This document shows, one piece after another, positions 6,087-37,755 of a stretch of DNA of 64,000 nucleotides. Under the pieces are notes generated by a model. It saw only the letters and a program-made list of their open reading frames with translations, ran no database searches and was not told where the DNA came from. Both the position numbers and the translations under genes were made by a program. The stretch is from Albugo candida. Taxonomy: Eukaryota. Each line of letters begins with the position of its first letter. The first letter of the stretch is position 1. The stretch covers positions 62,001 through 126,000 of the forward strand of contig JBDOQK010000026.1 of NCBI GenBank assembly GCA_040437565.1. The letters are read 5' to 3'.

Positions 6087-6796
6087 GTGTTGGTGTAATA
6101 TGCAAAATAAAATTCGGAGAGTGAAGCGATGTATCACATTTCGTATTGATAGTATATATTCATCAGAGTGATTGCGTTCTGAAAGCAAGTTGTCAAATGA
6201 CCAACTTGCAGTTGGATCGATGAAGCATTGATAAAGAGAGACAGGTCCGGAAACCGGATGGATTGTACACTGACTGAAAAAAGGAAGCACTCGGATGGTA
6301 AGCACTGCAAATTGATGGCAATGGTAAGATGCAATCTAACTGAAATTCATTAGTCGAGACTGTTCATTGTTAATAATTGTTCGCTGAACGTTACACAAAT
6401 CGTTTCTACCGACTAGTAGCCCTAACACTACTTTCATACCGCGAATAGGTATAATCAAGTACCATACCCAGCCAAATACAGCTCTCGCGTCAGTCGCGTC
6501 ACCAGGGTAGAATCATTAAACTGTATCTCTTGCGATCGTTGTATGCGCGTCGCAATGTATCATAATGCATCGATTTCGCCACCAAACCGCAAAGAAAGGC
6601 TTTTTTGGGGGTATAAAGCGTTGCATATGTCTACAGGGAATGCACAGGAAGCGTTCCAATCAACCACAAAATCCATGAATAGTGGAAGAAGAGGGGTAGA
6701 ATTGATTTTATGCACCCAAAATAAAAAGATTCCGGCACTTGCGATTACTCGATCCACATATGGTTTCTATCACAATCCATTTCACTGCATCACACA

Positions 6797-7669
6797 ATGT
6801 TTCCATCCGCTTCAAATGATACCAACAGCGATGACGAACTTAAGAACTTAATGATGCCGCGACGTCACAGCGACACGCTCTCATCCAAAGCTGCAACGCA
6901 ATTGATACAAAGCGTTCATCGCGTGGGTCAGGATCGACACTTGGCGGACAAGCTTCCATCCATTGCTGATCTTTTGGCTTCTCGACGAGCTGAGGAATTG
7001 ATGCAGCCGTTGACCGAAATTGAGTATGTGAGTCGACCGCGAAGTCGGACAGAGCCTCCATTTCCATTCTTTTCAACAAGTTCAGCATGCATGCCAAAGA
7101 TCGAGCCAATTGAAGACACATCCCCATGGCCGTCAGCAGTGCAGTATCAATCTATTTTCAGAGATCATTTGACCACAATGATTCCTGTTTGCGTAAATGA
7201 AGCAGCAGCGTGTGCAAATGGTCAGATTCCATTGTACGATCTCGGCCTCGATGCACGTGGTGTGGCATTACATCCCGAATTCATCTACATCCGACCGATC
7301 TCATGCATGTATTTTCTCCGTTGCAAGCGATTACTGGGCAAAGGATCCTTTGGCTTCCCACGACGGAGATCGCCATCACCAATTGGACACACTGAAAACT
7401 CTCGATGTAAAGAATACGAATGGCGGAAGATGAGTTTTGTCACCGCGTTGCCAAAGCAAAAGCCGCTGGTGAGGTATGTGACAGCAACCTGCTACACACG
7501 AACCTCTTTGGAATCGCAAGATAAAAGAAAAGTCTTTCGAATGCACGCTGTCATGCTCGCATCGGAGGATGGAAATTTAGACATTGGAGACTTTGTGTTG
7601 GTGCATATCCGAGCGGGAGGAAGTAAACGTATAGGAATCCGTGCTCCTCGAAATTGTTCGGGTGAATGA
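6797..7669 (+). CDS. Hypothetical protein with possible CG-1-like DNA-binding domain
   Basis: 290-aa ORF with a low-complexity N-terminus. The C-terminal EYEWRKM...RYVTATCY...FRMHAVML...FVLVHIR resembles the CG-1 (CAMTA) pattern by eye. Confidence 0.6.
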   Translation: MFPSASNDTNSDDELKNLMMPRRHSDTLSSKAATQLIQSVHRVGQDRHLADKLPSIADLLASRRAEELMQPLTEIEYVSRPRSRTEPPFPFFSTSSACMPKIEPIEDTSPWPSAVQYQSIFRDHLTTMIPVCVNEAAACANGQIPLYDLGLDARGVALHPEFIYIRPISCMYFLRCKRLLGKGSFGFPRRRSPSPIGHTENSRCKEYEWRKMSFVTALPKQKPLVRYVTATCYTRTSLESQDKRKVFRMHAVMLASEDGNLDIGDFVLVHIRAGGSKRIGIRAPRNCSGE

Positions 7670-32726: not shown

Positions 32727-35700
32727 CTAATTAAAAAAATACTCACTCTGTAATACATTGCGTAACTGTAACTCGCCCAATTTCGGTATCTTTCTGAATT
32801 TCGTAGTTGGAAAACGTAACTCCAATTGCTCTAATAAATCTTCTAAAAGCGGGCGCTCGTACAATCGCACAAATTCCTCCCGCAACCGCTTGTTCATCGT
32901 TTCAACCGAGCAAGCATGCGTCCAATAGCTATCATGCACTGCTGCGAATGCGATGTCATCCTCTTCCAAACACTTTTTTGCTGTCATCAACATATGCGTT
33001 GAATCCAAAGAATGCACGAAATTAGGCGGAAATGCTGTTTTCTGACGACCTGGACTGACTGGTAGATGATCCGTCGACACCATGAGGACATGCTGCACCT
33101 TTGTTCGAACTTGCTGGCATCCAAATCGCCGNNNNNNNNNNNNNNNNNNNNNNNNNNNNNNNNNNNNNNNNNNNNNNNNNNNNNNNNNNNNNNNNNNNNN
33201 NNNNNNNNNNNNNNNNNNNNNNNNNNNNNNNAACTCCAATTGCTCTAATAAATCTTCTAAAAGCGGGCGCTCGTACAATCGCACAAATTCCTCCCGCAAC
33301 CGCTTGTTCATCGTTTCAACCGAGCAAGCATGCGTCCAATAGCTATCATGCACTGCTGCGAATGCGATGTCATCCTCTTCCAAACACTTTTTTGCTGTCA
33401 TCAACATATGCGTTGAATCCAAAGAATGCACGAAATTAGGCGGAAATGCTGTTTTCTGACGACCTGGACTGACTGGTAGATGATCCGTCGACACCATGAG
33501 GACATGCTGCACCTTTGTTCGAACTTGCTGGCATCCAAATCGCCGATACGGCTGAACTACCGGTAGACCTAAAGGCGTGATCCAAGACATGAGCTGACCT
33601 TCTTCAGCTACCTTCGAGGCACAATCACCGAGCCATTCCATAATGTTACGAGCAGATGTGAACAAGTTACGTAACGATTCCATTGTTATTTCAGCTGCAT
33701 AACAAGATGAGTCATAAATCTGTTGATCCATTTCTTCGTCCGATAAACTCCCATTGGAAATATTCGCTTCCTGGAGACGGGCCTGTATCTGCTTCCGCGC
33801 TCCAATGAAGGTGACGCCGTATACGCTCGTCATCACGGTCTGCTTGACCACTCGACGTGTGATTGTACCAAGCAAAAACGTTGCGCATCGCTTCCGATGA
33901 GCGAGAGAGATTTTTCGCTCGGGAGTGGCATCTTCAGGAATCTCTAAATTGGCATCTCGATTTACTATATTCATCACTTGTTCGGCAACTTTTATATATA
34001 CATCTCCGGGCCGTGACGCAGGAACAAGATTCACTTGCTCACCACCTTTGAGATCTCGACCGAGAGCCGCGTAATGTTGCAATCCGTTACAGGATCCGTC
34101 TTGATGTACCGGTATGTTGGATAAGTACGTTTCTGGATCGGGCGATTCTAAAGCTCGTTTCAGTTCAAAACAGACACCGAGAGCTAGGAATGGATACTCT
34201 GCTGTTTTCCACCATGCTGCTTCGCCGATTCCATGTGGATCGCTTGCAGAGGCAAATACTTTGGTGAGATTGGATTCTGTAAACGCTACACGCTCATCGA
34301 ACGGGCACTTGTCGACCCCAAATACATTGGCAAGATGAATTTTAAGCCACCGTAACCCATCTTTACCAAGCGGTTTGCGATCACGAAAAAGAAGAAGACT
34401 TCGTGACATATCCGATCCAAGATGATTCAAATTAGGCGGAATTGGGTACACACGTCCTCGGAAATCTAAATTGTACGGAAAGTAAATTTCTTTTTCATTT
34501 CGAAATTCTTGAGCCACTTGTAATTTATATAATGTATCACAACGAAGTGAGTGCAGTTCGCGATTTCGTTGTCTAACCTACGAACAGAGGCATTGTTAGA
34601 ATTTATATCATTGGATAAAAACAGAGCAGGAGGAGATGTGAGGGATACAAAGCTTATGCAAGTATTCTTGCGGTGAGCTTGATCCCATATAATGTGGCAA
34701 TCAGTTTGAACCAGGCAAGGTACACACGTCACCTTGCTGGCTTGATTCTATTGCAGTTTTCGCTCACTCCGTACTCTCGACACATTATTTTGGACCTACC
34801 TTGGCGTGTGCTTTCAGCAATGCTTGACGCTTTTCAGGATCTTCCTCTTCTTCTGGTTTACTAGTTGGAAGAGGATAATCCTCCCGCGTTGGTAAGTCAC
34901 CAAATCCACCACCTTCTTGCCAGATTCGTAAAATCACGTCCAGAATCTCATGATTGATCACCCAAGGAACCTCAGCCAGCAAATTTAAGGTCGTAAACAA
35001 TTCATTCAATGGTGCACGTTTGACACAATCCATCTGCCACACTATGTCTCGCTGACGCATGATTTTGGTGTGTAACTTAAGATACCCTCCATTATTAGGA
35101 TTTTCCCACCGTTTTGGTGGCACTAACATTGGCAGATACCGAGCTGTCCACGGTAAAACGTTCAAGCCCGGATCGGTATTCAGAATCAGATTGAAAATGG
35201 TATCGTGAATTTTGAACATGCCTGAACGACGATTTCGATCATAGTAATAACAATGAACGAAAGCTTGCTCTTTCTTTGGTATCCTCTCTGGATTGTACAT
35301 CTCGATATCGCCATGCGCTTTTTTATCAGCTGCCATTAACAAACGATCCGGAACATAACAAGATCGTTGGATAAAGTCGATCAGAGCTGCTCCCACCTTG
35401 AGATTCAATCGTTTGTCCCATACTCCAACTGTTGTGTACACGTCTTCCATATGCTTCCGAAATACATCATTTTGAATGCCTCGTACCAGTGATAAGAAGT
35501 ACTTTTCTTCATCTTTCCGCTTTCTTTTGTTCTCAGCGATGTGTTCTTGAACGATATTTCCCAATGCGAGTGCAAGCTTTATAAAGCGTATCCCTTTTGA
35601 TTCCATGAGACAATTATTAAGCATTGTGTTGATAGTAAGTGCGGCAAGTACTTTAGCATCCAGTAATAGAAGCGCGGGTCCGTAAATGGTACTATCCAAA

Positions 35701-37559
35701 CTCCGTTTTCCAGCAAGCACATCGCGCTGTTCTTTGGCGATAAGAGATATTGCGGGCTCCATCCATCCAACCACGAGATTTTGAGCGGCGTTTACTTGCG
35801 AGGCTCGTCCTAATTTCCCGACGTCTTGACGGACTGACAAATGCTTTTCAACCGCCATATCGTAGATAGCACATTCCAAACGAATTTGACGAGCAAACAA
35901 TCGCTTCAAGTCTTTTAGCTCTTGCTGTGATTTGCATTTTTGTATCTGTTCCGGTGGAATGTTGTAATTCTGTAACCACCTTTCGACTTCTTCGTCGCTG
36001 ATGTATTGTCGACTGAAGTAAGTACGGTCGTTCGAATGTTCCTCTAAGTTAAAATCCTTTAAAATCGATGAGAGCCCGTCGTTCGTTTTTTGCATCACTT
36101 CGTTGAGCCCTGGGCGTAGAGATTGTCTTGGTACCATGTTCTGTGCATGGTCAGCCCAATCCGCATCTGGGATATTACTTGCTTCTGTGGTTGCTTGCTG
36201 TATTGCATTTTNNNNNNNNNNNNNNNNNNNNNNNNNNNNNNNNNNNNNNNNNNNNNNNNNNNNNNNNNNNNNNNNNNNNNNNNNNNNNNNNNNNNNNNNN
36301 NNNNNNNNNNNCGGTAAAACGTTCAAGCCCGGATCGGTATTCAGAATCAGATTGAAAATGGTATCGTGAATTTTGAACATGCCTGAACGACGATTTCGAT
36401 CATAGTAATAACAATGAACGAAAGCTTGCTCTTTCTTTGGTATCCTCTCTGGATTGTACATCTCGATATCGCCATGCGCTTTTTTATCAGCTGCCATTAA
36501 CAAACGATCCGGAACATAACAAGATCGTTGGATAAAGTCGATCAGAGCTGCTCCCACCTTGAGATTCAATCGTTTGTCCCATACTCCAACTGTTGTGTAC
36601 ACGTCTTCCATATGCTTCCGAAATACATCATTTTGAATGCCTCGTACCAGTGATAAGAAGTACTTTTCTTCATCTTTCCGCTTTCTTTTGTTCTCAGCGA
36701 TGTGTTCTTGAACGATATTTCCCAATGCGAGTGCAAGCTTTATAAAGCGTATCCCTTTTGATTCCATGAGACAATTATTAAGCATTGTGTTGATAGTAAG
36801 TGCGGCAAGTACTTTAGCATCCAGTAATAGAAGCGCGGGTCCGTAAATGGTACTATCCAAACTCCGTTTTCCAGCAAGCACATCGCGCTGTTCTTTGGCG
36901 ATAAGAGATATTGCGGGCTCCATCCATCCAACCACGAGATTTTGAGCGGCGTTTACTTGCGAGGCTCGTCCTAATTTCCCGACGTCTTGACGGACTGACA
37001 AATGCTTTTCAACCGCCATATCGTAGATAGCACATTCCAAACGAATTTGACGAGCAAACAATCGCTTCAAGTCTTTTAGCTCTTGCTGTGATTTGCATTT
37101 TTGTATCTGTTCCGGTGGAATGTTGTAATTCTGTAACCACCTTTCGACTTCTTCGTCGCTGATGTATTGTCGACTGAAGTAAGTACGGTCGTTCGAATGT
37201 TCCTCTAAGTTAAAATCCTTTAAAATCGATGAGAGCCCGTCGTTCGTTTTTTGCATCACTTCGTTGAGCCCTGGGCGTAGAGATTGTCTTGGTACCATGT
37301 TCTGTGCATGGTCAGCCCAATCCGCATCTGGGATATTACTTGCTTCTGTGGTTGCTTGCTGTATTGCATTTTTTCGCGCTGAATAAATAGATGAAGATTT
37401 ACAGCGATAATAGCTTGCAAATACGCCTTGTCTTTGCGATGATAGGTACCCTCCCAATGACGAATGCGTGCTTGATGTGGATAGGATGAGGCTATTATGA
37501 TAGACACCTTGACGGGAGCGTCGTGTGAGGCTCTGTAACATTCGTGGAACCGTCACCAT
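32727..37559 (-). CDS. POLRMT: Mitochondrial T3/T7-like single-subunit RNA polymerase
   Basis: NLDFRGRVYP, PVHQDGSCNGLQHYAAL, RRVVKQTVMTSVYG, FPPNFVHSLD and AVHDSYWTH, plus a presequence-like N-terminus. One 222-nt intron (34799-34578) joins ...KAHAK to VRQRNRELHSLRCD. Duplications at gaps 33132-33231 and 36212-36311 are artefacts. Confidence 0.96.
34634..34755 (-). ncRNA. Candidate intronic box H/ACA snoRNA
   Basis: Hairpin, H box (ACATTA, 34695-34690), second hairpin, then ACA (34639-34637) plus 3 nt; about 122 nt. It is co-oriented within the RNA polymerase intron, with 14 nt from the upper-stem base to the H box. Confidence 0.8.
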
Positions 37560-37755
37560 TCGCGTTTTAATAGTGCCAAATCCGCGACGAGTTTTGCTCC
37601 ATTCAATTATCAGCTCGAACGACGATACTGATTTATGACGAATCAAAGACGTCACTTCATTTTTGCTTTCTTTTGCCCAATCGAAATGTATTTCCAAGCA
37701 TCATTTATAACCAATCCACACACCGCGCAAGCATCGATGTATCCTAAGACTGGTA

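What the first reader, a model, noticed from the sequence alone, without database searches (positions are those of the whole stretch)
34634..34755. Box H/ACA snoRNA hidden in the intron of the mitochondrial RNA polymerase gene
Seen: the intron (34799-34578) is 222 nt, whereas the other introns I could define here are about 45-75 nt. Its sense strand reads GCAAT-AGAATCAA-GCCAGCAAGGT-gacgtgtgt-ACCTTGCCTGGT-TCAAACTG-ATTGC-C-ACATTA (H box ANANNA), then TAT-GGGAT-C-AAGCT-cacc-GCAAG-aata-CTTGC-ata-AGCTT-tgt-ATCCC-TC-ACA-TCT. Exactly 14 nt separate the upper stem from the H box. Established: this is the canonical H/ACA architecture and pocket spacing. Inference: the pocket arms (AGAATCAA / TCAAAC) predict a target GUUUGA-Psi-N-UUGAUU(C/U)U. 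That resembles the conserved cytoplasmic LSU rRNA segment ...UUGAUYYUGAUUUUCAG, which I recall from memory and did not check. A mitochondrial transcription gene hosting a nucleolar rRNA guide would couple cytosolic ribosome and mitochondrial biogenesis. The second hairpin has no obvious guide target.
Basis: partly seen in the sequence, partly recalled or inferred. Interest (0 to 1): 0.85.

Follow-up and report, generated by a model that had tools for sequence, protein, structure and literature searches.

The report
Intron-encoded H/ACA snoRNA in oomycete gene
The unusually long intron of an oomycete-type mitochondrial RNA polymerase gene most likely carries an ordinary box H/ACA guide RNA that directs one pseudouridine in large-subunit ribosomal RNA, at a site that is also modified in human ribosomes.

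Summary
The 222-nt intron (34799-34578) is skipped exactly in contigs of three RNA-type runs, so it is not coding. The hairpin-1 pocket arms find their best match in a complete eukaryotic rDNA unit at one LSU uridine, with 4+8 pairs. Two other LSU sequences give 5+8 and 6+7 pairs. Only 17 of 5000 shuffled arm pairs and 29 of 5000 window-drawn arm pairs score as well. Registering published modification maps on these sequences places that uridine at yeast 25S U2716, which corresponds to human 28S Psi4263. One review table assigns that human site to SNORA2A/ACA2A. A simple H/ACA scanner finds only this candidate in the window, against 0.17 per shuffled window. Three things are missing: the organism's own rRNA, orthologous introns, and any evidence of a stable small RNA. 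Hairpin 2 has no convincing target. The proposed coupling of mitochondrial and ribosome biogenesis is speculation. Verdict: a probable new member of a well-known class, of modest interest.

The parts
34800..37700 (-). Upstream exon of the host gene, a phage-type (mitochondrial) RNA polymerase with the RPOL_N domain. It contains an assembly gap (36212-36311) flanked by a perfect 1061-nt duplication.
   Evidence: Pfam PF14700, 1.5e-77. Gap and duplication.
34578..34799 (-). Spliceosomal intron, 222 nt, GT..AG.
   Evidence: Sequence. Contigs of X17, X18 and X19 skip exactly these 222 nt.
34697..34754 (-). Hairpin 1: 5-bp lower stem, pseudouridylation pocket, upper stem of 11-13 bp with one bulge.
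   Evidence: RNAfold.
34742..34749 (-). 5' pocket arm AGAAUCAA. It pairs with the target 3' of the Psi-N dinucleotide.
34702..34709 (-). 3' pocket arm UCAAACUG. Its first 4-6 nt pair with the target 5' of Psi.
34690..34695 (-). H box ACAUUA (ANANNA), 14 nt after the upper stem.
34642..34686 (-). Hairpin 2 (45 nt). It has no canonical pocket and no convincing target.
34634..34639 (-). ACA box (34639-34637) plus the three nucleotides UCU that would end the mature RNA.
   Evidence: Sequence. The 3' end is not mapped.
32727..34577 (-). Downstream exon of the host gene with the RNA_pol catalytic domain. It contains an assembly gap (33132-33231) flanked by a perfect 314-nt duplication.
   Evidence: Pfam PF00940, 5.1e-193. 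Gap and duplication.

Best explanation
The intron carries a box H/ACA small nucleolar RNA of about 121-125 nt.

Inferred mechanism, from the established biology of intronic H/ACA snoRNAs:
- The RNA is transcribed as part of the mitochondrial RNA polymerase pre-mRNA.
- It is bound co-transcriptionally by the Cbf5/dyskerin-Nop10-Nhp2-Gar1 proteins.
- It is released from the spliced intron by debranching and exonucleolytic trimming. The 3' end then lies 3 nt after ACA.

Hairpin 1 is the guide. Its 3' arm (UCAAAC...) pairs with LSU rRNA ...(G/Y)UUUGA. Its 5' arm (AGAAUCAA) pairs with UUGAUUYU. The U-N between these two stretches is left unpaired at the top of the pocket, 14 nt from the H box. That U is converted to pseudouridine. 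The site corresponds to yeast 25S U2716 and human 28S Psi4263.

Hairpin 2 probably serves only as the second protein-binding hairpin.

Shown here: the sequence, the fold, the boxes, the spacing, the splicing of the intron, and complementarity to LSU rRNAs of other eukaryotes.

Inferred: expression, processing, RNP assembly, pairing with the organism's own rRNA, and the modification itself.
For: 1. Canonical hairpin-hinge-hairpin-tail fold with z = -3.62; 0 of 200 shuffles fold as well. The fold is kept in the whole-intron fold.
2. ACAUUA lies 1 nt after hairpin 1. ACA lies 2 nt after hairpin 2. There are 14 nt between the pocket top and the H box.
3. It is on the sense strand of a confirmed intron.
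4. My scanner finds it as the only candidate in 128 kb, against 0.17 per shuffled window.
5. With arms fixed by the structure, the best bipartite match in a complete SSU+5.8S+LSU unit (L236, boundaries) is one LSU uridine, with 4+8 pairs including one G-U.
6. The same uridine is the top hit with score >=11.5 in 13 of 37 LSU-bearing loci. L216 gives 5+8 pairs and L227 gives 6+7.
7. Only 17 of 5000 shuffled-arm pairs and 29 of 5000 window-drawn arm pairs score as high.
8. The yeast modification map is Um2724, Um2729, Psi2735, Gm2791, Gm2793, Gm2815, Psi2826 (PMC5699541 table passage). It fits the LSU loci at only one offset in 12 of 12 loci tested. That offset puts the target at U2716.
9. Five human sites are Um4276, Psi4282, Gm4340, Gm4362 and Psi4373 (PMC6182160 table passages). 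All equal the yeast numbers plus 1547. The target therefore corresponds to human Psi4263, listed as 98% modified.
10. The human guide is given as snoRA2A (ACA2A), 28S-4263 and -4282 (PMC6466398 Table 1 passage).
Against: - There is no evidence of a stable small RNA. The runs laid are contigs and show only the spliced mRNA.
- No orthologous intron could be retrieved, so boxes, arms and stems are untested for conservation or covariation.
- The organism's own rRNA was not available. The target match rests on LSU rDNA of unidentified eukaryotes that contaminate prokaryote assemblies.
- In the six plant-like loci the base next to the unpaired N mismatches the guide.
- One locus (L217) gives an equally high score at an unrelated place 5.8 kb upstream of the primer site.
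- No Rfam H/ACA family matches.
- Hairpin 2 lacks a pocket. Its top stem ends 18 nt before ACA, outside the usual 14-16.
- The antisense strand folds at least as stably, z = -4.44, so stability alone does not fix the strand.
- The scanner thresholds were chosen after I had seen the candidate.
- Yeast has no pseudouridine at this site, so the site is not universal.
Confidence: 0.78

Rival explanations
1. Chance. A long intron happens to contain two stable hairpins with low-information box-like motifs (ANANNA, ACA) in the right places. No guide RNA is made.
For: - Three of 18 shuffled windows produced one architecture of this kind.
- The antisense strand folds as stably.
- Hairpin 2 has no pocket.
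- There is no expression or conservation evidence.
- There is no Rfam match.
Against: - The independent guide test is hard to get by chance: 17 of 5000 and 29 of 5000 null arm pairs reach the score.
- The match falls on a uridine that is pseudouridylated in human 28S.
- It is the only candidate in the window.
- It is on the sense strand of the host intron.
Confidence: 0.12
2. A real H/ACA-type RNA whose functional target is not the LSU site proposed. It could be an orphan, or act on another RNA through hairpin 1 or hairpin 2.
For: - The own rRNA is unseen.
- In fungal-like LSU the 5' side pairs over only 4 bp.
- Yeast does not modify this U.
Against: - The best match in a whole rDNA unit is this site.
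- Two LSU variants give 13 contiguous pairs.
- The spacing to the H box is canonical.
Confidence: 0.05
3. A different intronic RNA element, such as a small-RNA precursor hairpin or a structure that influences splicing of this intron.
For: - There are strong hairpins on both strands.
- Intron sequences flanking the candidate can pair with each other in the whole-intron fold.
Against: - The stems are short and interrupted for a Dicer substrate.
- Such an element would not explain the boxes, the spacing or the rRNA complementarity.
- No repeat or transposon copy exists in the window.
Confidence: 0.05

Closest known systems
Human SNORA2A/ACA2A (box H/ACA snoRNA, intron-encoded in KANSL2)
   Same: It is intron-encoded and has two hairpins. 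A review table gives it as the guide for 28S-4263 (PMC6466398 Table 1 passage). The hairpin-1 target here registers to that same position.
   Different: - No detectable sequence or structure similarity: no SNORA family appears at E <= 10 in Rfam scans.
- The human RNA is listed with a second target, 28S-4282. Hairpin 2 here shows no match to that site or any other.
- The host gene is different.
Yeast snR189 (box H/ACA snoRNA)
   Same: It guides Psi2735 in the same LSU segment, 19 nt downstream of the site predicted here (PMC5699541 table passage; registration).
   Different: It acts on a different uridine. Yeast has no pseudouridine listed at U2716. That snR189 is not intronic is recalled, not checked.
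Intron-encoded box H/ACA snoRNAs in general
   Same: One snoRNA per intron, on the sense strand, released after splicing. The architecture, boxes and 14-nt spacing are canonical.
   Different: The lineage is oomycete-like. Passages of PMC3675471 describe intron-residing snoRNAs as abundant in metazoans, less so in plants and almost absent in fungi. My four literature searches listed no paper devoted to oomycete snoRNAs (listings only).

Membership tests
Box H/ACA snoRNA | Hairpin-hinge-hairpin-tail secondary structure | tested here: met
   RNAfold of the 122 nt and of the whole intron.
Box H/ACA snoRNA | H box ANANNA in the hinge directly after hairpin 1 | tested here: met
   ACAUUA at 34695-34690, 1 nt after the lower stem.
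Box H/ACA snoRNA | ACA located 3 nt from the mature 3' end, just after hairpin 2 | tested here: inconclusive
   ACA at 34639-34637, 2 nt after hairpin 2. The mature 3' end is not mapped, because the runs laid are contigs.
Box H/ACA snoRNA | Internal-loop pocket with bipartite complementarity to a target uridine 14-16 nt upstream of the H or ACA box | tested here: met
   14-nt spacing. Pairs of 4+8, 5+8 and 6+7 to one LSU uridine in heterologous eukaryotic LSU rDNA. Null tests give 17 of 5000 and 29 of 5000. The organism's own rRNA was not available.
Box H/ACA snoRNA | Accumulates as a stable RNA of about 120-140 nt bound by Cbf5/dyskerin, Nop10, Nhp2 and Gar1 | not testable with these tools
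   Only assembled contigs could be laid.
Box H/ACA snoRNA | Boxes, guide arms and stems conserved or covarying in related species | tested here: inconclusive
   The metagenome scan gave 80 host-gene loci with at most 55% protein identity. None has an intron with this element at the junction. No oomycete genome was reachable.
SNORA2/ACA2 family | Guides the LSU uridine equivalent to human 28S-4263 | tested here: met
   By registration of published maps on LSU loci. This is an inference, not a direct alignment to human 28S.
SNORA2/ACA2 family | Second hairpin guides the uridine equivalent to human 28S-4282 | tested here: not met
   Among all pocket definitions of hairpin 2 scanned against L236 rRNA, none matched that site. 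The best hits lie elsewhere and come from many trials.
SNORA2/ACA2 family | Match to a curated Rfam covariance model | tested here: not met
   No H/ACA family at gathering score in the window. At E <= 10, the 401-nt scan gave one chance hit to a plastid element, and the 141-nt scan gave a trypanosomatid H/ACA model at E = 7.4 and a bacterial sRNA.

The most novel reading that the evidence does not exclude
The guide for a cytosolic-ribosome pseudouridine is made only when the mitochondrial RNA polymerase gene is transcribed and spliced. In addition, the intron is kept, and kept long, in an intron-poor, short-intron genome only because it carries this guide. A related and more likely reading is that the Psi4263-type site and its guide date back to the common ancestor of stramenopiles and animals and were lost in yeast.
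Probability: 0.1. Interest if true: 0.5.

Novelty: new member of a known kind. Interest (0 to 1): 0.3.

Why it matters
- It would explain why this intron is long.
- It would add a snoRNA with an assigned target to a lineage whose snoRNAs are hardly described. The four literature searches listed no dedicated paper.
- It shows that Rfam-based annotation misses such genes.
- It predicts a pseudouridine in oomycete LSU rRNA at a site that is modified in human but not in yeast. This bears on how old that modification is.
- It does not change what is known about how H/ACA guides work.

Tried and rejected
- Own genome: none is held, so the organism's rRNA could not be read.
- Sequencing runs: no RNA holder is listed on record. 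In the four RNA-guessed runs laid, no contig lies inside the intron. This says nothing about the small RNA.
- Orthologous introns:
  - The one metagenome scan returned 80 loci of the host gene at 43-55% identity.
  - Ten loci with extra DNA at the junction were inspected. The sequences read like continuing coding sequence for a variable acidic linker; I judged this by eye and did not test it.
  - An unconstrained arm search in them gave many chance scores up to 14, so it was discarded as uninformative.
- A viral-contig scan with the predicted target pattern gave chance hits only. A viral-contig scan with an LSU primer gave none.
- A multi-locus Rfam call failed internally and was repeated on one locus.
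- Rfam similarity: nothing meaningful.
- Hairpin 2 target: only weak hits that depend on many trials.
- Repeat or transposon origin: no other copy in the window.
- Arabidopsis comparison: the main text of PMC8351944 mentions none of the site numbers or guides searched for. Its Supplementary Table 2, which may list the equivalent plant site, could not be seen.
- Intron-length survey: the frame-joining heuristic was too ambiguous to use.
- I considered recovering an oomycete LSU through spurious rDNA reading frames in the protein database (frames surveyed). I did not run it, because the top hits would be dominated by the query's own lineage.

Full report
**What is there**

A GT..AG intron runs from 34799 to 34578 (222 nt). 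It lies between a long reading frame with an RPOL_N domain (PF14700, 1.5e-77) and one with the RNA_pol catalytic domain (PF00940, 5.1e-193). This is a phage-type, that is mitochondrial, RNA polymerase gene. Its best named relatives are Aphanomyces proteins at 58-67% identity, so an oomycete-like origin is plausible.

Contigs of three RNA-guessed runs skip exactly these 222 nt. Two are contigs of 3.1-3.2 kb from X17 and X18, and one is a 189-nt contig from X19.

**Anatomy**

The 122 nt at 34755-34634 fold into two hairpins with a single-stranded hinge and tail. The energy is -38.5 kcal/mol, z = -3.62, and 0 of 200 shuffles fold as well. Both hairpins persist in the fold of the whole intron.

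- Hairpin 1 (34754-34697) has a 5-bp lower stem, an internal loop with arms AGAAUCAA and UCAAACUG, and an upper stem of 11-13 bp.
- ACAUUA (ANANNA) follows 1 nt after the lower stem, 14 nt after the upper stem.
- Hairpin 2 (34686-34642) is followed after 2 nt by ACA, then UCU.
- The minimum-energy fold closes one extra A-U pair at the top of the pocket. That pair must open for the target to bind as proposed.

**Chance**

The antisense strand folds at least as stably (z = -4.44). Stability therefore cannot decide the strand. The boxes, the host-gene orientation and the guide do.

I wrote a plain H/ACA architecture scanner. It requires:
- a 5' hairpin with a pocket whose top lies 13-16 nt from an ANANNA;
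- a second hairpin;
- ACA within 3 nt after it.

It returns one candidate in both strands of the 64-kb window, and that candidate is this one. Eighteen dinucleotide-shuffled windows gave 0 candidates in 15 cases and one candidate in 3 (mean 0.17). I chose the thresholds after seeing the candidate, so this is only moderate evidence.

**The guide test**

No genome is held for the window. I needed eukaryotic rRNA from a tool, so I scanned with a recalled LSU primer. The scan pulled 37 pieces of eukaryotic LSU rDNA that contaminate prokaryote assemblies (L201-L237). One of them, L236, carries a complete SSU, 5.8S and LSU.

With the two arms fixed by the structure, the best bipartite match in L236's three rRNAs is a single LSU uridine, 90 nt upstream of the primer site. 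It pairs over 4+8 positions, one of them G-U.

Results across the 37 loci:
- The same uridine is the top hit with a score of at least 11.5 in 13 loci.
- L216 gives 5+8 pairs and L227 gives 6+7.
- Fifteen loci gave no hit under my contiguous-pairing rule. Among them are six plant-like loci, where the base next to the unpaired N is C and mismatches the guide.
- One locus, L217, gave an equal score at an unrelated place.

As a null, 17 of 5000 shuffles of the two arms and 29 of 5000 arm pairs drawn at random from the window reached the observed score on L236. This test is independent of how the candidate was found. It is the main reason I accept the candidate.

**Which site it is**

The yeast map in Sloan et al. 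(PMC5699541, table passage) lists Um2724, Um2729, Psi2735, Gm2791, Gm2793, Gm2815 and Psi2826. I required the right base at each of these spacings. Only one offset within +/-150 nt fits in 12 of 12 loci tested (the range was cut short in some), and it puts the predicted target at U2716. Yeast lists no modification there.

The human map of Taoka et al. (PMC6182160, table passages) lists Psi4263, Psi4266, Psi4269, Um4276, Psi4282, Gm4340, Gm4362 and Psi4373. The last five equal the yeast numbers plus 1547 and are of the same modification type. So U2716 corresponds to human Psi4263, which is listed as 98% modified. The dense Psi4263/4266/4269 cluster is also named in PMC11541003 (passage). A review table gives snoRA2A (ACA2A) as the guide for 28S-4263 and -4282 (PMC6466398, Table 1 passage).

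This equivalence is my inference from numbers and base identities. It is not a direct alignment to human or yeast rRNA, which I could not fetch.

**Hairpin 2**

I scanned every plausible pocket definition against L236's rRNAs. Only weak hits turned up, they depend on many trials, and none lies at the 4282-equivalent. The top stem of hairpin 2 ends 18 nt before ACA. I read hairpin 2 as structural. Single-guide H/ACA snoRNAs are common, but that statement is established knowledge and was not tested here.

**What is missing**

- Expression: the laid runs are contigs and show only spliced mRNA.
- Conservation: the single metagenome scan gave host-gene loci of at most 55% identity. These have no such intron at the junction. 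The ten with extra DNA there, when inspected, read like continuing coding sequence by eye, which I did not test.
- The organism's own LSU sequence.
- Rfam gives no family. The element is therefore not a recognisable member of SNORA2 or any curated family, although hairpin 1 appears to do the job of one SNORA2 hairpin.

**Known context and novelty**

Box H/ACA snoRNAs in introns are textbook biology. Passages of PMC3675471 describe intronic snoRNAs as frequent in metazoans, rarer in plants and almost absent in fungi. Four literature searches listed no paper devoted to oomycete snoRNAs. I saw listings only, so this is not proof that none exists.

I rate the finding as a probable new member of a known kind.

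**Verdict**

- Observation: confirmed.
- Interpretation: partly supported.
- Best explanation: an intron-encoded H/ACA snoRNA guiding the LSU pseudouridine equivalent to human 28S Psi4263, confidence 0.78.
- Interest: 0.3.

Noticed in passing
window 33132-33231 and 36212-36311 (and 18 other places): The window holds 20 runs of exactly 100 N. The two inside the RNA polymerase gene are each flanked by a perfect direct duplication. One is 314 nt (32818-33131 = 33232-33545, spacing 414). The other is 1061 nt (35151-36211 = 36312-37372, spacing 1161). These look like unmerged contig ends at scaffold gaps. Without them the protein would be about 1059 aa, close to the 1089-1179 aa of the Aphanomyces relatives and to the 3.1-3.2 kb RNA-type contigs. 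Annotated gene models here may carry false internal repeats.
   Followed up: partly
window about 34777-34763 and about 34635-34623: In the whole-intron fold, intron sequence upstream of the candidate pairs with sequence that starts in the ACA tail and runs downstream. This encloses the two hairpins in an outer helix. It could be chance or an external stem that brings the snoRNA ends together.
   Followed up: no
L201-L237, e.g. L236:2027-7897: Eukaryotic rDNA (fungal-like, plant-like and protist-like LSU) sits in 37 or more contigs of assemblies labelled as bacteria or archaea. L236 holds a full SSU-5.8S-LSU unit with a group I intron in the LSU at 6653-6995.
   Followed up: partly
window 34800-34870 (end of the upstream exon) and loci L008, L012, L019, L020, L021, L033: The protein stretch just before the intron is an acidic, poorly conserved linker. 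Distant relatives carry extra DNA of 130-270 nt at the same place. By eye it reads like continuing coding sequence; I did not translate it.
   Followed up: partly
window 34095 and 34446: RNA-type contigs differ from the window by single bases in the downstream exon. The change is T>A at 34095 in X17 and X18, and G>A at 34446 in X20. This is probably strain variation.
   Followed up: no
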